DNA of 63,795 nucleotides, filler included, from Kipferlia bialata (Eukaryota), in NCBI GenBank assembly GCA_003568945.1. It is 6 parts of 6 records of this genome, joined end to end, with 100 filler letters (N's around TTAATTAATTAA, not from the genome) between each part and the next. Parts side by side here need not be neighbours in the genome. Positions count along the whole stretch, not along the records: positions 26,047 to 38,966 come from BDIP01001014.1; 5 more parts are not named here. The stretch is one strand, 5' to 3'. Every line of letters starts with the position of its first letter. The stretch's first letter is position 1. Below, piece by piece: positions 27,009-40,634 of this stretch. Both the position numbers and the translations under genes were made by a program. A model generated the notes under the pieces. That model was given only the letters and a program-made list of their open reading frames with translations, did no database searches and was not told where the DNA came from.

Positions 27009-30000
27009 TGGGGACTGGATGGCAGTGTCAAGTATAGCATACAACACATACAGATACACATACACACACATAACCACATATGTGTGTCATAGTATGACTC
27101 ATACTGTTGCAAGAGAGATAGGCCTAGTAGCGCGCATACATATATGTGTGTCATTACTTGTCACTTCTAAATACATATATTCTTTCTAGTGGATCCATGT
27201 TACACCTAGGGGTGTGCGTTGTCCTGTACCACCTGGAGACAGATGTGCATATACACTTCTACATACATTATCAGTATTCATTAGGTCTACACCTATATAT
27301 TACTATACATTAATACCCAGGGTTGCCGTTGTGGTGTACCACTTAGAGACAGATACACACATATATATGTAGAATGCACATGTATGTATTAGTATAGTCA
27401 CACACATATATTTGCAGACATATTATTCACTAATACTCAGAGGTGTCGTTGTCCTGTATCACCTGGACACTGCTGCAGTGACAGGCACTTATAGAGTATA
27501 TATTGTGTATAGTACATATAGTACATCATACACTAATGCTCAAAGGTGCCGTTGTGCTGTACCATCAAGAGACAGATGCAGAGACAGGCACATACAGTAT
27601 ATATATAGTATATATAGTGACAGTACCTATATTGTATTGTATCCTTACCCCTAGGGGTGCTGTGGTCCTGTACCACCTGGACACTGATGCAGAGACAGAC
27701 CCATACATATATATAGTATGTATTGTATATATAGAATAGTACTATATACTGATACCCAGGGGTGCTGTTGTCCTGTACCACCTGGACACTGATGCAGAGA
27801 CAGGCACCTATATGTATATATATGAATATATATATGAATATATATAGTGAATAATACACTAACGCCTAGGGGTGCTGTGGTCCTGTACCACCTAGGCACT
27901 GATGCAGAGACAGACATTTATAGAGTATATATAGTATGTATTGTATATATAGTGCACTATATACTAATACCTAGGGGTGCCGTTGTGTTGTACCACCTAG
28001 AGACTGATATAGAGACAGGCACATACATATAGTATGTATAGTGACAGTACATATATTATTGTATTTTATCCTTACCCCTAGGGGTACCGTTGTGCTGTAC
28101 CACCTAGAGACTGATGCAGAGACAGACACTAACCAATGGGTGGAGCACACAGTGATAGAGCCAAGTGCTGACACACCAGGTGTATATACACATTAGTATA
28201 TACTATGTATATATTCTATGTCTATATGTATATTCTATGTATAGCTAGACCAAGGGGTGGGTGGAGCACACAGTGCTAGAGCCTAGTGCCGATACACCAG
28301 GTGGATATACACATTAGTTTATACTATGTGTAGCTAGACCAACCATATTGGCTGCAGTATAGTTCTATCCTTATATTTATACTAATATATCCAAATGAGT
28401 GGGTGGAGCACACAGTGTTGGAGCCAAGTCCCGATACCCCAGGTGTATATACTGTTTATAGTTATAGTGTTGGCTACAGTATAGTTCTATCCTTATATAC
28501 TTACGCTATATACCCTAATGAGTGGGTGGAGCACACAGTACTAGTGCCCAGTCCTGACACACCAGGTATACATTGATAAGACATATATAGTATGTGTATA
28601 CCATACACCTAAGTGCATTTGTGTACTGACTCCAGGCACCTATGGGAGTCTGATGTTTGGTACCTCTCTCTCCCTGACAGGGACATCCATAGCAATAGGG
28701 GCTAACCAGGAGGTATATATATAGACATGTGTATGTTTGGAGAGAGTGCTCTTAGTGTACTTCTTCTAGTAAGGTTTCGTTTGGAGTTGTTGTTTGTGAG
28801 CAACTTTAGAAATAGGTCCGGGATTACTATTCACAAGTTGAGATATCTTATCTTGTGTACGTTAGTATAATAATTGTGTTAAATCCACCGCCTCCCCCAC
28901 AGGTTGTCAATGGACGTCTCTGGGCTGGGGCGGTGTATGTGTACACACTGACAGAGGGTGAGTGAGGGGGTATTCTTGGGTCTTTCAACGTTGTACTTCT
29001 AGCCCTATTGTACTCTATTCTACTCTCCTTCAATCATGTTCTGAAGAAGTGAATATCCATCCCCTGCCCCTCACCACAGATGGTGTGTGGACACAGGAGG
29101 GACACATACCTATGCCACTGGACATTGTGCAGGTATAAGTATGTATATATATGTATACAATTATGTGTATATATGTATATATTAACTCAATGACACATAC
29201 CCATCCCAGTGGACATTGTGCAGGTATAAGTGTCCATTTGTATGTATATATATATGTGTGTAGATATATTTGTGTACAGATCATTTAATGACACATACCT
29301 ATGCACTGTATACATTGCTGACATAGTTGCTAAATTGTATTTGTTCCAAAACACAATTGTGCTTCCACTCATATATTGTCTAGACCCTCACTGCAGGACT
29401 ACGAGGAGGACTTTGGCTACTCGGTTGCCCTGGGCCCCGACTTCCTAGTCACATCCAGCACCCACAGTGTGTATGTGGCAGAGAGATCAGGTTAGTATAT
29501 GACACAAGAATACATGTGAATGTATGGATGTATATATACCTTTGTATGTATGTTGCAATAGTACTCACACCAGCTGAGGGTGTGTTGGGCACAGCTGCCA
29601 AGGTTGAGTATATGAGGAGTATACAGTGCTATGTCTCATAACAACAGATATATGTAAATACTATATGTGTATATATATTTGCATCGTGGACTTACACCAG
29701 CTGAGGGTGTGTGGGGTGAAGCTGTCAAGGTTGAGTCTCCTGATGGTGTGTTAATGTCCTCAGCCACTCTGGTATACGGACAAGGGACAGTGGGTATAGG
29801 AGCATTGGCCTCAAGTGTGACAGTGGAGGTATAAATGGTACATATATATGCATATTCATATATATATATATATATGGTACACATAAGGTGTCAGTGTCAT
29901 CTTCCGCTCGAGCATTGGCTCCAAGTGTGACAGTGGAGGTATGCCACAAAGAGAGCCTGTGAACACAACTTTACCCGAATACTGAAGGCAATACTTGCAT

Positions 30001-33000
30001 CCTTACCCCTCAGGGTGAGGTCTTAACCATATATAGTTGCATACATATATATATGAATAGACATTATTATATGCTAATGTATCTATGTATAGGTTGAGGT
30101 GGTCATACGCACTGACCCTCAAGGCGACCCTAACTAGGGCTGGTCTTGTCCTTCGTATGACACCTCCATCTATATATAAATACATACATATATGTATATA
30201 TGAATATACATTACTATATGCGAATGTATGTATGTATATAGGTTGAGGTGGTCATACCAACTGACCCTTAGGGTGAGGTCTTAACCAGAGCTGGCCTTGT
30301 CCTACTGTATGACACCTCCGTCCCTTTACACATATAGATGGACACTATATATATGTTTATATCTGAATAGACATTGTCCTCTCTGCTTAGTATAGGTTAT
30401 GGTCATACTAACTCTACAGGGAGAGACGCTCACCAGGGCTGGTCTTGTCCTACTGTATGACACCTCCATCCCCCTGTGGTACACTAGTACAGACACAGCT
30501 GCTGGGACAGGGTTATACCAGGCATGTATGGCACAAAGAATCCGTATAACTCAGACACACATGTATATAGACTAAACCTACGTACATACATTACTCCAGG
30601 TCCTCCAGTCCCCCTCCCCCCAGAGGGATGGGATGTATATCTATATCTATCTATATACCTATCACTGTGTCTGATCATGTATATTAGTGTACGTAACTCA
30701 CCCTCAGGTCCTCCAGTCCCCCTCTCCCCAGAGGGACGGGCTGTTCGGGGGTGCTCTCTCCTTTGACGTGACATCATTTGTCACAGATGGAGTGACGGTG
30801 GAGGTATGTATATGTACTTGCACATAGATAAGGTCATGTTTCTATCTGACTGTAGGCCCAGTTGCTAGTGAGTGAGTCTGCAACTGATGAAATATTTAGT
30901 ATTATATATATAGATACATGTATATAGTAAGGTAGTGGCAGTATCTAACATCCAGGCCCAGTTGCTAGTGAGTGAGTCCGGTGCCAATGTCCTGTTGGCA
31001 GAGGGGGCAGGGGTGGCACATTTGTATAGGTATAATATATACATACTTGTATATATATATACTATGCTATTAATGTATATATATGTATGTATATGCTGGT
31101 GCCGATGTCTTGTTGGCAGAGGGGGCTGGCGTTGCCCACCTTTACAGGTATGTATATTCTCTATATATATTCTCTATTGGTTTGACGTCTAGTCGATTCA
31201 GCGTCTCAGCGTCTCAACGTCTCAACGTCTCAGCGTCTCATACCCAGGTGCAGTGATGCTGGCACTGTGTATCCCATGACTCTGTTCCAGACTGTTGTAC
31301 AGACACCCAAGAGCAGTGAGACATTTGGATACAGGGTGGCTGTCAGGTAGATATATGTTGCTAGGAGTGTCTAGACTACAGACTGTAGTGTGTGTGGTAT
31401 AATCTTATGTATAGACTTATCACTAGCGGAGAGAGGATGGCCATCGGTAATGGGGGTGGTCCAGTGGTGGCTGTCTCTCTCTCTCTCTCTGTCTCTCTCT
31501 CCCCCTAAGTATGTACATACAACACTAATCAATAGGGGTGAGAGGATGGCCATCGTTTGTTGGGCTTACCCACATTCACTAGTTCTACCTGTATGTCTCT
31601 ATATATCTATCCATCTATAGGATATGTGTAATATCCAGTGGAGAGAGGATGGTCATCATTGTATTTCTCTCTCTCTCTCTCCCCCCCTAAGTATGTATAT
31701 ATAATTCTTATCAATAGGGGTGAGAGGATGGCCGTCGTTAGCGGGGGCGGAGCAGGAGGGGTGACTGTACTGGACTACTCAACGGTGGCAGGTACGTATA
31801 TAGCTGTATATATTTATATATGTATTCATATATATATAGAGATAGATACATATATACTAGTGTATACCATCTGACTGCACTGGACTACTCAACGGTGGCA
31901 GGTATATTTTTAATACATGTACAAATATATACTATTACTATGTATATATTTAATATACTATCTGACGGTGCTGGACCACTCAACGGTGGCAGGTACGTGT
32001 ATATATATACTAACAGTAGCAGGGTTGCATACTCCCGCACAGTGTGTTTATATACCTAAAACACTGTACACCCATTATATAGGCCTGTATGTCCCCGCTG
32101 CCCCAGTGCCAGCTGGATGTATACCTACGTCTGTGATCTAAATATATATATATATATATCCAATATATATATATACGTATAACCACAGGCCTGTATGTCC
32201 CGTCTGCCCCTGTCCTTGAGAGTGGGTTCAACGGAGAGAGCAGGAACTTTGGACAGTCCATCGCACTCTGTGATGACGGTATCACTGGTACAGGTACTAT
32301 ATATGAATGGGTGTATGTATACCTTCCAGTAGAGTGTGTCTCTATCACCTTACTACCAGGCCCCACTCTCTATGTGGGCAGTGCCCTAGATGGGATATTG
32401 GTATATATACTTATATATATTTACGTGTATGTACATATATAGTAGTCTAAGTATTTATACTATCTCATATCCAGCTACCACTGTCTACGTGGGCAGTGCC
32501 TCCCTAGATGGGACAGGGGGGGTATATGGGGTCATGGTGAGGTAGGGTATATGTATGTATAAGTGTATATACGTATGTAGATATGTTGTTGGGGAGAGAA
32601 TGAGAGAGATAGGATGGATGGGGACAGGGGGTGTGTATGTGATCATAGTCAGGTATGGTGCACTAACACTGAAGTGGGTGGGAGAGAGGGAGACTGGGTA
32701 TATGGGTTGTGGGGTGGTGCGATTTGGCATGTGTAAAGATTTATTAATTAGTATTAGTATTAGTATAATTAATGTACTCTGTACTGGTATGATATTAACA
32801 CCAGGTCCATTTACGCCAACTGCTGGATGCCAATGGCGGACCAGATGCCCACATGCGGTGCAGCAATGGGAAACATCAGGTATACATAGTATTTATACAC
32901 TTATAGTGCATAGTACATATTTATAGAGAGAGAGACAGAAAGGGAGAGAGAGAGGGAGAGAGTGATGCCCACATGCGGTGCAGCAAGGGGAAACATCAGG

Positions 33001-36000
33001 TATACCTTATATGTACTAAATATACATTTTATGTAACGACAGAGAGAGAGAGAGGGAGAGAGGGAGTGTAATGATTGATCAGATTCCCCCATGCAGCACA
33101 ACATTGGGAATTGTTTGAAATGCTTTTGTATACATGTATATACTAGTATATGATATATATATAATCCACATATGAATCTCTAACCCTCAGAGTTTATGAC
33201 GTCGAGACAGGGAATGTCTGCACAGACGACCTGTCAGCTGGTATGTTCATATATACAATCATATATATATATATATTCAAGTATTCACATACATAACAGC
33301 TAGAGAGGCAGAGAGACGGCCAGCCAGCTGGTATGTACACGTATACATATTTGTGTATGTGTATCTATGTATATTCAGTAGTGTAATATATGGTGTATGT
33401 ATATACACTCTTACTATTAGGCCTCTCTGCCTATTGGCAGACCCCCGAGGGATACTGTGTATATGTATATATNNNNNNNNNNNNNNNNNNNNNNNNNNNN
33501 NNNNNNNNNNNNNNNNNNNNNNNNNNNNNNNNNNNNNNNNNNNNNNNNNNNNNNNNNNNNNNNNNNNNNNCTATATGTATGATCTTACCCATAGGCCTCT
33601 CTGCCTATTGGCAGACCCCCGAGGGTGAAGACGTCCAACCACCCCAGCCGATGACTGTTAGGGATCCAGTCAACTTCCCAGGTATGTCATGAACATACTA
33701 GGCATACACACATATATCTATTATGTACATACTATATATACAATGTGTTATAGTTCATGTAACCAGCCCATGACGGTCAGAGATCCCGTCAACCACCCAG
33801 GTATGTGTGCTTATACTCTGTATACGATAGTATAGTAAATATAATTGTAGTACAATACACATGTGTGTATATATATTCTATCTCACTTCAGGCGAGTACC
33901 TCATAGACCTGACTGGCCCACCTGGCCATGTATTCTATATTTACACAGTATACATAAGTATATATAGTATATATATATTCATAGTATGTGTATTTGAACT
34001 TTCCCCAGGCGAATACCTCATAGACCTCACTGGCCCCCCTGCCCCTGGGTTACACACTCTCAGGGTGTGCTACAACGGTATGTGTATACAGACAGATATG
34101 TGTGTGTGTGTGTGTGTGTGTGTGTATACAGACAGATATGTGTATACTACTCATTCTAATGGTATATATATATATATACATATGGTACAATACATGCATC
34201 CACCCCCAGGTGTCACCATCACCTCAGGAAGTGCCCTCACACTATTAATATGTATATTATGTATATATATGTATATATATGTATATATATGTATATATAT
34301 ATATACTGTGTATATCTCCTCTAGTAGTGCCCCCAGTGTACAGACTATATATATACACATATATACATACTATGTATAAGTATATATATTCAATCGAACT
34401 TACGCAGGTGTCACCCTCACCTCTGGCAGTGCCCCCACACCATATATATATATATATATATACATACTGGGTATAAGTATATATATTCCAACTTACGCAG
34501 GGTGTCACCATCACCTCCGGCAGTGCCCCCACAATATATATATATATATGTATTTGTGTGTGTATCTACGTATGTATATGTGTAATGCTGCTATCATGCT
34601 TCAAGTCACCCATATCAGGTGTCACCATCACCTCTGGCAGTGCCCCCAGTGTACAGACTGTAGACCCCACTCTATCAACCATACACGGCACATGTACCAA
34701 GGATGAGCCACTACCCATATCCATATCCATACTAGACAGCTGTGGTGGGAGCATCACGGGTCTAACTGTCACTGCTACAGTAACAAATGCATCTGGTACC
34801 GTTGTGTACACTGGAGACGTGACAGAGGTTGTGGGTACCCCAGGGGTGTATGAGACTGTTACTGATAGCCTACCCGAGGGTGTGTACACTGTAAGTGCCT
34901 TAGCCGGAGGAGTCGTTGTTACTGGCACTCTCTATGTGTGTGCCTTCACTGTATCTGAGGGAGGTGTGGACTTCCACATTAGTGTGGAGTCATATGTACT
35001 GATAGACTCTGTCTCTGCCACTGCTGGTGTGCCACACTACGTGGGTCTAGCCCTCTATGACGTAGAGGGTAGTGCTGTTACAGCACTGGTTGATGTGTCA
35101 ATAAGGGACACTGGGACTGGGGCTGTGTACCCATTGACTATTAGTGGTAGTACCTACACAGGTAATATCATTGTATTGCTAGAGGCTACTATATATATAT
35201 GTGTGTGTGTATGTATGGTTATGTGGTGTATTTACTCCAGGTGTTATGGTGTATTTACTCCAGGTGTTGTGGTGCTAGAGGATATATAGTATATATGTAT
35301 ATAGCATATAGTATTTATGTATATGTTTTGTATTTACTCCAGGTGATGTGGTACTAGAGGATATATATTATATATGTATATAGCATATACTATATATGTA
35401 TATGTAGTGTATTCACTCCAGGTGATGTGGTGCTAGAGGCAGGCCAGGCATCCTTGATGGTGGTGGTGGGGGGGGAGTCATTCTTCATATTCAAGGTGGG
35501 ATGATTTTCAGCGGCTATGTTGCAATGTATATTTAGTAATAGTATATATCCGTCAAGGTTCGGTGCTACTGCACTATATATATAGTGTCTATGGATATAT
35601 ATACATTCTTGAATCCTTCTTCATATTCAAGGTATGTATATATATATCTATGCGTCTAACTGTATAGAGTTACTGTATTACGTATATATGGATGTATCTA
35701 TGTATTGCTATTTCGCCAGTGTCTCTCTTCATATTCAATGTTGGATATATGGTATATATCATATAGTAATAGTGATATTAATAGAGATATACGTCAATGT
35801 GTGATGATTTGTTCCTGTAGTATGTCAATGGTATATATATATGTACATACATATACAGTGTTTATTCTTCCTGTCTTTGTGGTCAGAGGATAACGTACTC
35901 TCACAGGTGTATATTGGCTTCACGTTTTCTCTAACCCTAGATTGATGTGGATGAGCCCTTCCCTGCTGAGCCTGTGTCCAAGGTGTGTGTGCATGCATAC

Positions 36001-36384
36001 ATACTTATACTACATACAGAATAACATGTCTCATGTCTGCTGTATATATGCATCCCAAATCATTAGTTGTAGCTCACTGTGTACACACGTGTATTTTATA
36101 TGCATTGTCTGAGCCATCGTATATTACTTGTAACCACCAAATACCAGTGCGCATAGGTTGGACCCTCTTTGTTCTTGCCTCTGTATTCATCTTTATATAC
36201 ATATTTGATATATTATTACCATACACATTATATAATATATAATATATACACTCTAATCACCCAGGTGCCTATGGTAGTGGGATGGACCCTCTTTGTCCTA
36301 GCCTCTGTCTTCATCGGTGTCAGGGAGGGCATGCGGTGCAAGTACAAGGACCATGTCAGACTTGACATGGGTGCTACCGCGTAG
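26401..36384 (+). CDS. Type I membrane surface protein: signal peptide, FG-GAP (integrin-alpha-like) beta-propeller, Ig/filamin-like domains, C-terminal TM helix
   Basis: MLLSLAVLATVLSLCYG signal peptide; repeats MFGTSLSL..IAIGA..AGAVYVY, DFGYSVAL, LFGGALSF, TFGYRVAV, NFGQSIAL..YVGS; Thr/Val-rich beta region 34619-35161; TM VVGWTLFVLASVFIGV then REGMRCKYKDHVRLDMGATA*. Confidence 0.8.
27200..28570 (+). repeat. Exon-echo tandem array: 8 acceptor-side and 3 donor-side partial copies around the real exon ~28082-28179
   Basis: ~110-bp period copies of [..CCYAG + GGTGCYGTKGTSCTGTACCACCTRGASACWGATGCAGAGACAG] upstream, and of [GGGTGGAGCACACAGT..ACMCCAG + GT] downstream. Confidence 0.9.
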
Positions 36385-37213
36385 AATATGAGTAGTAGTA
36401 ATAGAGAGGGAGAGAGAGAGTGAGGGGAGGGAGGGTATGAGGTGCAAGTACAAGGACCATGTCAGACTGGAGATGGGGGCAACCGCGTAGAATATGAATG
36501 AAAAGACATATAACATTTTTACATCATAGTTCCTTATGTTTTGTTAGAATGTCTTTGACAGGTATGCATCTGGTAAGGTGCAAGTACAATGACCATGTGA
36601 GACTGGACATGGGGGCAACAGCATAGATAATTGATACATATAGTAATAGTAACAATATTTGAGAGACAGAGAGAGAGCGAGAATGTAAGTACAATGGCCT
36701 TATGATATGGCCCACATCAGTCTGTATATGGGGGCAACAGCATATACACACGCCTTGTATGCAAAATAATGAGTGAGAGAGATTCAGTTGCGCCAAAGAT
36801 CATGCTAGACTGGCAAATTTGAATGAAACACATTTCTGGACAGATTCCATTCCATTTGGGTTCTTTAGCAACTTGTCCAAGGGCTAACTGTGGCAGAATA
36901 GTGTATATTGCTTCGTGAAGAAATACTCTGCTTGATTGGAAGGACTATGCAGGAATATTGAGAGACAGCGGGAGGGTTTCAACAAATTATTGAAATAGAG
37001 TTTCTATATTTTGAGATGTACTACATTGGGCAAATGTACTCAACAAAGAACACATAGAAAGTTTCAATTTGAAACCTTTCAGCGGCTTTCTCTCTTGGTG
37101 CTCCCTCGCATATTCCCTCTATTGAGCACTCCCTACCACACTTACTACTTACTATCTTACACAGAGAGGGGTGTCACTCAGTACGTATTGCCTATACGTG
37201 CCTGGTTTAGGCA

Positions 37214-37819
37214 ATGTCGAAGAAGAGTGAGCGCTTCGCCTTGCTGAACTCCAATGCTCCTAGCCCAACACCTAGCCCATCATTAGTGGCTCCTCCCTCT
37301 AGTGCCTCTGACAAGGCCCAGCACTCCACAGGACATACCTCCCAAGGTACTTTATAGGCTATAAATTATAGCACACCTCTGATCTGCATACACATATCTA
37401 CATTTACATACCTATATCAAATTTACTTATACACAGTCATATCATATGTACTCTAAAGCGCTCCCATATACATTATGTGGCATATATTCAACATACCTGA
37501 TGCAGCTCAGGGAATCGGTGCTCTAAACGGCCCTTCCTGGCGAAAGGAGATCTCCGTGCCCTCAGAGAGAGATTCCGACGACCCATACTTCAGTTACAGG
37601 TATAACACATAAGGGCCTAGGCTTGATAGCCACCAAATACATTGATTTCTCCTCAGTTCCAGGGAGGCCGTGCTGAGACACGGCAACTGGCAGGACAAGG
37701 AGCACATGCCAACCTGGGAGGAGTTTGAAGAGATGGAGGAGGACTACCAGAGAGCAATGGCCTCGGAGTCAAGGGACTCACTACGTGACTCCAGTGAGGA
37801 GACATCTGGATTTCCTTGA
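37214..37819 (+). CDS. Small 3-exon hypothetical protein (~130 aa)
   Basis: MSKKSERFALLNSNAPSPTPS.. | AQGIGALNGPSWRKEISV.. | SREAVLRHGNWQDKEHMPTWEEFEEMEEDYQR..SGFP*; introns join in phase (1, then 2). Confidence 0.6.
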
Positions 37820-38966
37820 CTGAGAGGGGGAGTTTGAAGAGATGGAAGAGGACTTCAAGAGAGAGAGAGGGAGAGAGAGACATGACCTCGGAGTCCAGTG
37901 AGACATCTGGACTCCCCTGAGTAGAATACATCCCGAGAACTATAAAGAGACTGATCAGTATATAGTACCTTACTAGGCCTAGTACGGCTTACTAGGCCTA
38001 GTACTACAAAAGTATGTATAACTTATACATTGTATAAGTCAGAATAGATTCTTGTCACTTTCTGCCTCGACGGTCCTAACCCTGTAAATACCTTACTACC
38101 GGGCTCTACTCCCGCCAATGGCAGTGCCATGCACATACAAATTGCAAACTCAGATCGACAATTTTGGATTGTGGGTGTGGCTCAAAAGATACATACAGGA
38201 AGATAGATGTTGGACCTTACAACTGATCATAGCATTCCAGCCGGGTCCCCACTGCTTAGAGCTCTTTTAAGTATGAGAAGTAGCCATATTTTGACGGATT
38301 CTATTCCACCATTCCACCATAATACAGCCTGTTGAGAACGAAACTGGCAATCTTCACGCTCAGCCTCAGTCTTAGGTTTAGCCAAGGGTGAACCAACTTT
38401 GTATTTAGTTACTTGCGTCCTATTGCGGTGACTGTGATCTACTTGAGAGGGGCTCTATCATTGAAATAGGATTACTATAGATTACCTCTTGAAGAGGTCC
38501 TCTTCACTTCTTGAAAAGATGAAGTGCAAATAGTATCAGTGTCAGTATCAATATCAGTCAATTGCTAACAGTGTCAGACTAGCACTGTCAGTCTGCCACT
38601 TCCTTCACTTCTTCTTGTGAAGCTGAAGGTTCCCCAGAGCTCTGTTGAGCTTCCTCACGTCACGCCTTTCCTGGGGTCACATCCAGATACAACATGATAC
38701 TGATAAGGAATAGAGTGGCAATCGTACTTTATCAGTGAAAAATTATCACAGTGTGGTACTATGTCATAGTCCGCCAGTACTACAGTTATAGCATCACTAA
38801 CTCAGTTATACTAGTTATAATGACTAAGATATAACTAGTTTATAACATATACTATATGTGTTACATATATAGTACTTGCCGAAGCCCCTTATTTCGCCAA
38901 AATATGGACCCTATTTTGGATGAAATGACCCCCCTTTGGATGGATGAAATAGTGTCGGGCATCATT

Positions 38967-39066
38967 NNNNNNNNNNNNNNNNNNNNNNNNNNNNNNNNNN
39001 NNNNNNNNNNTTAATTAATTAANNNNNNNNNNNNNNNNNNNNNNNNNNNNNNNNNNNNNNNNNNNN
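38967..39066. other. Artificial contig linker
   Basis: N44-TTAATTAATTAA-N44. Confidence 0.97.
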
Positions 39067-39204: not shown

Positions 39205-40598
39205 CTAAAGTACCTCACCCCACTGCATACTGTCATCTGGGTACACCATGCCCTGTGGCAAGGTAAGAGAGACACAGTCACCTCTGGAGAGTGGCAGAAG
39301 CCTTGAGTTAGGGTGAATATATACATATTTGTGTGTGGTACAAATATAGTGATTATACGATAATTGTCCTCTCCTACCACAGTATCCTTCACTCCCTCTC
39401 TTTGGTACTATATGCATACAATAGTATATGAATATATGCATACACTAGTATATACATATATACCTGTCCTCTCCCACCACTGATACCCGTTCTGCCTCCC
39501 TTAGAAAGGGGCCACTAGAAGCTTAAGATAAGAGGCTAGAGAGAGAGAGAGAGAGAACATTGTCAGAAAGGGGCCACTAGTAGCTTGAAATAAGGGGCTA
39601 GAGAGAGAGGGAGAGAACACATGACACATTGTCATAGAGGGGCCACTTGTTGCTGAGATGGGTATATAACCATATACTACATACAAAATTCCATATACTA
39701 TAAACTACATATATATATCCATACAGAGTGTCATAGTATAGTGTATTCATATGCATATACATAACTGTCTCAGAATGATACCCATGTATACATATTAGTG
39801 TAACCAGATACCTCTTGCGTCAAGTGACTCTTTCATCATACAGATTTCTCTTTCATCATACAGATTTCTCTTTCATCATACAGATTTCTTGTTATGACAT
39901 GTGTAAGTATCTATGCGTATATAACAAGTCTGTGCATATAGCACCTCTTGTGTCAAGTGCACACCAGTCCAGATACTCTCATCATCCATAGTATTAGCTA
40001 ATTGCGTAATTAATGTATATAATACATATTATTGATTCATCGTTAGTGTCTATAATACCTCTTGTGTCAAGTGCACCCCAGTCCAGGTACTGGCCAGTGA
40101 TGGTGTCACATATATAAATATATTCACTGACTCTTATATATAACTCGTTATACTACTCTCTCACTTCATACTATAGTTCTATAATGGAGTTACTCCATTG
40201 GAGTATACAGTAACTACATTCATTGATACCCACCCTTTGTACTTAGTGCACCCCAGTCCAGGTACTGGCCAGTGATGGTGTCATATATATATATACACAA
40301 ATATACATATANNNNNNNNNNNNNNNNNNNNNNNNNNNNNNNNNNNNNNNNNNNNNNNNNNNNNNNNNNNNNNNNNNNNNNNNNNNNNNNNNNNNNNNNN
40401 NNNNATTCAGTGCACCCCACTCCAGGTACTGGCCAGTGATGGTGTCATATATATATATAGTCAAGTATACTATATATAGTGTACTACTGTATATATTCAT
40501 AGAGTACCCTTTCTATTCAGTCTACCCCAGTCCAGGTACTGGCCAGTGATGGTGTCATAGGCTAGGACCTAGGTGTTATGGAGAATGTACACATATAT

Positions 40599-40634
<36 letters not shown>

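What the first reader, a model, noticed from the sequence alone, without database searches (positions are those of the whole stretch)
27200..28570. Largest echo array: a bank of 11 variant ends around one ~98-nt exon of a surface protein
Seen: 8 acceptor echoes encode frame-preserving variants (VCVVLYHLET, VAVVVYHLET, GVVVLYHLDT, GAVVLYHQET, GAVVLYHLDT x2, GAVVLYHLGT, GAVVLYHLET) versus the real GTVVLYHLET. Three donor echoes give VLEPSADTP, VLEPSPDTP and VLVPSPDTP versus VIEPSADTP. Most keep branch point and AG. Inference: deletion or conversion between echo and exon would give in-frame variants, a possible diversification cassette for an extracellular beta-propeller.
Basis: partly seen in the sequence, partly recalled or inferred. 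Interest (0 to 1): 0.78.

Follow-up and report, generated by a model that had tools for sequence, protein, structure and literature searches.

The report
Introns built from exon-end echoes
In this free-living protist most introns of the genes examined carry short silent copies of the neighbouring exon ends, and these copies differ from the real exon mainly at positions that do not change the protein, so they are likely snapshots of other working alleles left by recombination (which would be a trace of hidden sex) rather than a variation cassette for one surface protein.

Summary
The array is real: 8 copies of the start and 3 of the end of a 98-nt exon (28082-28179) of an integrin-alpha-like FG-GAP surface protein of Kipferlia bialata. 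It is not a special cassette. The same echoes flank 74 of 132 exon boundaries in five gene segments on three contigs, including proteins without membrane segments, and each echo adds about 100 nt to its intron. Splicing to any of the 11 echoes and reading on to the real partner site gives a frameshift, and the RNA-type contig uses only the real exon. The surprise is elsewhere: echoes differ from exons, and from each other, four to five times less at amino-acid-changing than at silent sites (ratios 0.22 and 0.25). Duplication and exchange within one lineage gives 0.64-0.88 in simulation. Silent divergence stays near 0.2 however alike the flanking intron is, and the array is mosaic. Best reading (55%): junction-spanning duplications whose exon parts are exchanged with divergent working alleles, so one genome holds a record of population alleles. 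Not found in ten literature searches; the nearest case is the human F7 intron 7 minisatellite. A second isolate would decide it.

The parts
26398..36384 (+). Host gene, 23 exons, 788-residue FG-GAP propeller / Ig-like / membrane-helix protein (public model KIPB_004654, Kipferlia bialata)
   Evidence: Exon chain translates exactly to P0002; Pfam FG-GAP_2 E=2e-06; model pLDDT 81, best fold matches integrin alpha chains
28082..28179 (+). Functional exon 3 (98 nt; residues 63-94, predicted strands 63-73 and 78-87 of the first propeller blade)
   Evidence: the only version in the 2,370-nt spliced contig of run X2
27211..27245 (+). Acceptor echo 1; one extra base, out of frame from its AG
27321..27357 (+). 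Acceptor echo 2 (AG kept)
27441..27489 (+). Acceptor echo 3 (AG kept)
27544..27591 (+). Acceptor echo 4 (AG lost)
27655..27700 (+). Acceptor echo 5; its upstream spacer is the closest to the real exon's spacer (0.85) yet it has 6 exonic differences
27760..27807 (+). Acceptor echo 6 (AG kept)
27870..27916 (+). Acceptor echo 7 (AG kept)
27975..28022 (+). Acceptor echo 8 (AG kept)
28258..28300 (+). Donor echo 1 (GT kept)
28400..28442 (+). Donor echo 2 (GT kept)
28512..28565 (+). Donor echo 3 (GT kept)
27000..27053 (+). Echo of the end of exon 2 in the same intron (GT lost), 5-prime of all acceptor echoes
36428..36626 (+). Two echoes of the last exon's end, including the stop codon, downstream of the gene where there is no donor site
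13148..25797 (+). Unrelated gene on another contig (35 curated exons; first 21 equal public model KIPB_004653) with 50 echoes and the strongest silent bias (0.11)
39214..46499 (-). Kelch-repeat gene segment (7 exons) and a 3-exon segment on a third contig, 16 echoes together

Best explanation
The array is the largest case of a pattern common in this genome, tandem copies of about 100 nt that span an exon-intron junction and stay silent, whose exon parts are likely exchanged by recombination with other working alleles, so that they would be snapshots of a very diverse, recombining population. Shown: the copies, their order and polarity, their spread across unrelated genes, the silent-site bias, the mosaic pattern, and use of the exon-proximal sites in the two spliced contigs. 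Inferred step 1: a unit arises by template switching or unequal exchange between an exon end and the TA/CT-rich intron; it is tolerated because it carries only one splice site and the site nearest the exon body is used. Inferred step 2: because introns diverge fast and only exon sequence still pairs between homologues, repair or meiotic exchange between divergent alleles replaces exon ends and echo cores, and adds or removes units. Two copies that were both working alleles until recently differ mainly at silent sites. Inferred step 3: after capture a copy decays neutrally, which gives the amino-acid-changing singletons and lost AG/GT. New protein variants would be an occasional by-product, not the purpose.
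For: Spread: 113 echoes at 74 of 132 boundaries in five gene segments on three contigs; 48 of 60 gap-free introns hold one; intron length = 131 + 102 per echo, r=0.89. Polarity: 58 of 58 upstream echoes begin within 15 nt of the exon start, 52 of 55 downstream echoes reach within 15 nt of its end; donor echoes precede acceptor echoes in 18 of 18 introns with both. Silent bias: mismatches by codon position 84/64/219; zero-fold versus four-fold divergence 0.22 (bootstrap over boundaries 0.15-0.29), echo versus echo 0.25 (0.19-0.37, 26 boundaries), second gene 0.11 (0.05-0.20); the frames of its first 21 exons equal the public model. Six single-lineage simulations with duplication, deletion and conversion give 0.64-0.73 and 0.83-0.88. 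Four-fold divergence is 0.23, 0.20, 0.21 for echoes whose intron flank is 0.87, 0.71, 0.54 identical (96 echoes, rho -0.07, p=0.51), so the exon part does not age with its flank. Variants shared by two or more echoes are more silent (9/528 zero-fold, 15/148 four-fold) than singletons (48/528, 41/148). Nearest paralogue is 35% identical, too far to be the donor. PMC8516963 (passages): metamonads lack Ku70/80, fornicates lost Rad51A and have two Dmc1, homologous repair is proposed as the main route, meiotic genes are kept.
Against: No second allele or isolate was found, so the central prediction is untested (empty; X1 shows no other letters over the array). It needs silent diversity near 0.2, which is very high (my knowledge). 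The simulation has no population-level selection on echoes. Echoes of one boundary are not independent (handled by bootstrap and unique-variant counts, 0.21), and the score cut-off of 15 drops decayed echoes, which could flatten the flank test. In the focal acceptor array unique variants are only weakly biased (10/30 zero-fold, 5/10 four-fold). The third contig gives 0.36 (0.24-0.51). An annotation-free test showed three-base periodicity of mismatches in two contigs (0.46, 0.44) but not in two others (0.25, 0.35), and two contigs have almost no echoes (1 and 2 pairs). Ploidy of this species was not established. PMC8516963 states that sex has not been directly observed in Metamonada.
Confidence: 0.55

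Rival explanations
1. Back-up copies under indirect selection: breaks near exon ends are often repaired by annealing or conversion from the echo on the same chromosome, so damaged echoes are purged when they move into the working position. No allele exchange is needed.
For: Mosaic units; zero-fold divergence does not rise as flanks diverge (0.058, 0.067, 0.042); 47 of 55 AG and 41 of 48 GT kept; no Ku-dependent end joining, single-strand annealing available (PMC8516963 passages).
Against: Needs scaled selection of at least 1.5-2.5 on each echo site. With use rates limited by the observed silent divergence this implies population mutation rates near 0.4-0.6 per site (my estimate), more extreme than the best explanation needs.
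Confidence: 0.17
2. Diversification cassette for the surface propeller: silent copies are kept as a bank of variants that are converted into the exon.
For: Largest array of the census, on a predicted surface propeller; the surface gene's ratio (0.25) is above the second gene's (0.11); units are mosaic; another 5-copy array lies at 50289-50722 in a gene that looks secreted by eye.
Against: Same structure in segments without membrane or signal-like stretches and after the stop codon; dN/dS 0.30, changes mostly conservative; the two confidence intervals overlap; no variant exon in X1 or X2 contigs.
Confidence: 0.1
3. Some echoes are expressed micro-exons: acceptor echoes 3, 6 and 8 keep AG and have GC right after base 44, so with a GC donor they would be 44-nt exons in the same phases as the 98-nt exon (18 residues shorter); selection on rare isoforms would explain the silent bias.
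For: The gene has one GC-AG intron (after exon 9); the phases fit.
Against: Neither spliced contig shows an echo-specific base; donor and stop-codon echoes show the same bias (0.18 for downstream echoes); read-through use shifts the frame in 11 of 11. Contigs drop rare isoforms, so this is not excluded.
Confidence: 0.07
4. Plain neutral slippage duplications; the silent bias comes from fast silent-site change in exons (codon or GC selection) and not from allele exchange.
For: At degenerate sites the exon has G/C and the echo A/T more often than the reverse (91 versus 54 unique changes, p=0.003; zero-fold 40 versus 33, p=0.48); 15 of 113 echoes are identical to the exon.
Against: Echo-versus-echo ratio is also 0.25; simulation gives 0.64 or more; GC at four-fold sites differs little (0.56 versus 0.54); exons would need silent change several times faster than neutral intron sequence of the same transcript.
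Confidence: 0.08
5. Assembly artefact: divergent alleles of a heterozygous cell laid out in tandem.
For: Short-read assembly (PMC5874029, methods section); silent bias is what alleles give.
Against: Unbranched contigs of run X1 span the units with no other letters at the depth of the flanks; tandem bubble arms would put acceptor echoes before donor echoes, the reverse of 18 of 18 introns; up to nine distinct versions.
Confidence: 0.03

Closest known systems
Human F7 intron 7 37-bp minisatellite with 5-prime pseudo-sites (PMC1557585, abstract read)
   Same: Tandem units whose first element spans the exon-intron boundary; downstream copies of the donor are functional in principle but silent; the most upstream donor is used.
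   Different: One locus, donors only, pseudo-sites identical in sequence. Here both donors and acceptors, most introns of the genes examined, units of about 100 nt with 15-63 nt of exon, and coding-type constraint in the copies.
Silent-cassette antigenic variation, Borrelia vls (PMC11499132, passages read); trypanosome VSG mosaics (search listing only)
   Same: Silent partial copies about 90% identical next to the expressed sequence; mosaic pattern pointing to segmental exchange.
   Different: vls is one surface locus with unidirectional conversion and raised dN/dS in variable regions. Here copies flank unrelated genes and differences are mostly silent; no variation within the culture was seen in contigs.
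Tandem mutually exclusive exons of Dscam type (recalled, no call)
   Same: Tandem duplicated exon sequence inside introns of a surface receptor; silent-biased divergence.
   Different: Those are whole exons with both splice sites and are spliced in; these are half exons with one site.
Intron birth by segmental duplication (PMC3265369, abstract read)
   Same: Short tandem duplication inside a gene that splicing makes harmless.
   Different: There the duplication creates a new intron within an exon; here it lengthens existing introns and creates no new junction in the contigs seen.
Integrin alpha chains (host protein)
   Same: Signal helix, FG-GAP propeller, Ig-like domains, single membrane helix; Foldseek E 2.6e-17 to integrin alphaX.
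   Different: 12% identity, TM-score about 0.4; the tail lacks the GFFKR motif (motif recalled); no beta partner tested.

Membership tests
Silent-cassette diversification system (vls type) | Silent partial copies about 90% identical beside the expressed sequence | tested here: met
   11 copies, scores 23-38 over 29-54 nt
Silent-cassette diversification system (vls type) | Confined to a variable surface antigen | tested here: not met
   66 of 113 echoes lie in four other gene segments with no hydrophobic window above 1.43; those segments are partial, so their cell location is not proven
Silent-cassette diversification system (vls type) | Copies enriched for amino-acid change | tested here: not met
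   dN/dS 0.30 in the array, 0.21 overall
Silent-cassette diversification system (vls type) | Frequent one-way conversion giving variant expressed sequences within a clone | tested here: inconclusive
   No other letters in X1 or X2 contigs over the exon; contigs drop rare variants; past exchange is suggested by mosaicism
Mutually exclusive exon array | Each copy has acceptor and donor and keeps frame | tested here: not met
   Read-through use shifts the frame in 11 of 11; three copies have a possible GC donor, unproven
Mutually exclusive exon array | Copies appear in mRNA | tested here: inconclusive
   One spliced contig per gene, real exons only; no raw reads available
Junction-spanning tandem repeat with silent pseudo-splice sites (F7 type) | Tandem units span the exon-intron boundary | tested here: met
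   intron flanks of echoes resemble the real flank above background
Junction-spanning tandem repeat with silent pseudo-splice sites (F7 type) | Exon-proximal site is used, others silent | tested here: met
   Spliced contigs of run X2, whose RNA status is the tool's guess
Junction-spanning tandem repeat with silent pseudo-splice sites (F7 type) | Copy number varies between individuals | not testable with these tools
   Only one sample found
FG-GAP propeller, integrin-alpha-like architecture (host protein) | Signal peptide, FG-GAP propeller, Ig-like domains, membrane helix | tested here: met
   (predicted model)
Integrin alpha (strict) | GFFKR tail motif (recalled) and a beta-chain partner | tested here: not met
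   Motif absent from the P0002 tail; partner not tested

The most novel reading that the evidence does not exclude
Kipferlia introns are largely built from captured ends of other alleles' exons. A single genome then carries a fossil sample of its population's working alleles (silent diversity about 0.2), gives sequence evidence of sexual or parasexual recombination in a free-living metamonad, and shows a route of intron growth driven by exchange between homologues that pair only at exons.
Probability: 0.45. Interest if true: 0.87.

Novelty: new variant of a known kind. Interest (0 to 1): 0.72.

Why it matters
Untranslated intron sequence that carries the mark of protein-level purifying selection is not expected, and duplication within one lineage did not reproduce it in simulation. 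If allele exchange is the cause, recombination and diversity can be read from one genome in a group where sex has not been directly observed (PMC8516963). It would also explain much of this organism's intron length, make it a natural test bed for how the spliceosome picks among near-identical sites, and warn annotators that echoes mimic micro-exons (my own gene finder picked several).

Tried and rejected
No whole genome was held, so the census is limited to the window. Metagenome searches for another allele found nothing: protein patterns, 258 stretches, none confirmed; a DNA pattern, 0 matches. No RNA holder is on record; X2 is an RNA guess with a 0.10 share, treated as transcript-derived only because its contigs skip introns. 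The joint 24046-24313 points at an echo identical to the exon over 33 nt; spacing within the contig fits the real 67-nt exon, so it was not counted as echo use. Joints in X1 between TA repeats were taken as false. An automatic gene finder chose echoes as exons and was replaced by hand curation. Two low-complexity hits in one kelch exon were dropped before counting (75 to 74 boundaries), and hits scoring 14 were left out. The second gene could not be named: no Pfam or PDB match, Atlas leads too weak. The segment at 46499-45928 resembles RTF1 from recall, but Pfam, PDB and Atlas gave no support. Paralogue origin was rejected. Three look-ups of earlier findings were empty. Junction microhomology was not tested. 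Supplements of the papers were not opened and could mention these repeats.

Full report
Source and gene. The window is six separate contigs joined by 100-nt linkers (N positions; two contig lengths equal those reported for the encoded proteins). The finding lies in the third (26047-38966). Its 543-nt exon retrieved one protein, P0002, named by NCBI as Kipferlia bialata KIPB_004654. A chain of 23 exons from 26398 to 36384 translates exactly to it, with one GC-AG intron. Pfam gives one FG-GAP_2 match. The predicted model (mean pLDDT 81) has an N-terminal helix, a long run of beta strands to about residue 465, further beta domains and a helix at 750-775; hydrophobic windows above 1.9 occur only at the start and at 750; the best fold matches are integrin alpha chains.

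Observation. Eight copies of the first 35-49 nt of exon 3 lie upstream and three copies of its last 43-54 nt downstream, with the peptides given. Six of eight keep AG in place; copy 1 is one base out of frame and copy 4 has AA; all three donor copies keep GT. Contigs of DNA run X1 reproduce the array, apart from a skipped 47-nt repeat, without differences and at the depth of the flanks; X1 may be the source sample. A 2,370-nt contig of run X2 (RNA by the tool's guess) lays as separate exon pieces including 28079-28175, with spacing that leaves no room for an echo. Using any echo as a splice site and reading to the real partner site adds a non-multiple of three bases and meets a stop in 11 of 11 cases, so only DNA-level exchange, or an unproven GC-donor micro-exon, could yield in-frame variants.

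It is a general feature. I curated 68 exons in five gene segments on three contigs. The first 21 exons of the second gene equal the public model P0152, and 8 listed pieces of a 5,847-nt X2 contig match 8 of its 14 later exons. Local alignment of each exon to its flanking introns, at a score reached by 0.4% of 782 control pairs, gave 113 echoes at 74 of 132 boundaries, median 36 nt. Upstream echoes copy exon starts (58 of 58), downstream echoes copy exon ends (52 of 55), and donor echoes come first in 18 of 18 introns with both. 48 of 60 gap-free introns hold an echo and length rises by 102 nt per echo (r=0.89). Echoes of the 543-nt exon are still 30-36 nt, and the stop-codon end has echoes too. 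An annotation-free scan found 14, 64, 81, 58, 1 and 2 local repeat pairs in the six contigs and none at control distances (a quarter of offsets), so density is uneven; the fifth contig includes ribosomal protein L32.

The anomaly. Mismatches fall at codon positions 1, 2, 3 as 84, 64, 219; dN/dS is 0.21 overall and 0.30 in this array. Zero-fold over four-fold divergence, which does not depend on transition bias, is 0.22 (0.15-0.29) for echo versus exon, 0.21 counting each variant once, and 0.25 (0.19-0.37) for echo versus echo; by gene 0.11, 0.25 and 0.36. If two copies share a chromosome and only one works at a time, at least half the branch length between them is neutral, so the ratio should be 0.5 or more (inference); six simulations with duplication, deletion and conversion gave 0.64-0.73 and, between echoes, 0.83-0.88. 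Silent divergence is about 0.2 whether the intron flank is 87% or 54% identical. In the array, echo 5 has the spacer closest to the real exon's (0.85) but 6 exonic differences, while echoes 5 and 6 differ at 2 exonic sites with spacers 0.66 alike; 18 of 45 informative site pairs show four gametes. Against: unique variants in the acceptor array are weakly biased (10/30 versus 5/10), mismatch periodicity was seen in two of four informative contigs, and the cut-off removes decayed echoes.

Mechanism. Two copies can both have been under protein-level selection if they worked at the same time on different chromosomes. Paralogues are too distant (35% identity), which leaves alleles. I propose that junction-spanning duplications arise at exon/microsatellite borders, persist because the exon-proximal splice site wins, and have their exon cores exchanged with divergent alleles, since only exon sequence still pairs between homologues. 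The excess of G/C in exons at degenerate sites (91 versus 54) would fit GC-biased allelic conversion but also codon selection. PMC8516963 (passages) reports no Ku70/80 in metamonads, loss of Rad51A with two Dmc1 in fornicates, retained meiotic genes, a probably haploid relative, and no direct observation of sex. These steps are inferred; no second allele was found. The main rival is indirect selection on echoes as same-chromosome back-ups, which needs scaled selection of 1.5-2.5 or more.

Comparison and novelty. The closest case is the human F7 intron 7 minisatellite, whose first unit spans the junction and whose downstream donors stay silent (PMC1557585, abstract). The vls cassette system shares silent copies of about 90% identity but is one surface locus with raised dN/dS in variable regions (PMC11499132, passages); two defining features were tested and not met. 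The genome paper's main text has no occurrence of 'tandem' or 'alternative', and its five 'repeat' passages shown do not concern introns (PMC5874029, passages and methods section; supplements not opened). Ten searches of the held library (listings only) showed no description of pervasive exon-end echoes with silent bias; subscription journals are largely missing from that library.

Verdict. Observation confirmed; cassette reading unlikely (10%). The array is the tail of a widespread and apparently undescribed genome pattern whose silent-site bias demands an explanation beyond simple duplication; allele exchange is the most likely (55%). Interest 0.72.

Noticed in passing
window 12926-13025, 25947-26046, 38967-39066, 51972-52071, 58919-59018: 100-nt linkers (N runs around a short all-frame stop): the window is six unlinked contigs, so gene neighbourhood across them means nothing.
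   Followed up: yes
window 26398-36384: Integrin-alpha-like architecture (FG-GAP propeller, Ig-like domains, membrane helix) in a metamonad, with full-length relatives in the same species (35%) and in Dysnectes brevis (28%).
   Followed up: partly
window 52072-63795: Two contigs with intron-rich genes but almost no echoes (1 and 2 repeat pairs); unexplained, perhaps low recombination or a different gene class.
   Followed up: partly
window 50289-50722: Five acceptor echoes before an exon at about 50798 in another gene on the + strand.
   Followed up: partly
window 36428-36744: Echoes of the stop-codon end of the gene, where no donor exists; the two strong ones keep the stop codon.
   Followed up: partly
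window 26290-26341: A diverged echo of the first exon's start, including a start codon and signal-peptide-like codons, behind an AG; the real start codon also follows an AG, so a 5-prime untranslated intron is likely.
   Followed up: no
window 30521-30522: GC-AG intron after exon 9 of the host gene.
   Followed up: yes
window 46499-45928 (minus): Three exons that resemble RTF1 from recall, with tandem donor echoes; unconfirmed by Pfam, PDB and Atlas; followed by a 35-nt G run and a phase break that may be a mis-join.
   Followed up: partly
window 13261-25797: Large unknown gene (5,847-nt contig in X2) split in the public annotation at an assembly gap; no family found.
   Followed up: partly
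window 9395-12452: Two long intronless open frames (1,857 and 993 nt) in an otherwise intron-dense genome; not examined.
   Followed up: no
window-wide acceptors: A branch-point-like motif sits only about 5-9 nt before the AG in most introns, as recalled for other metamonads.
   Followed up: no
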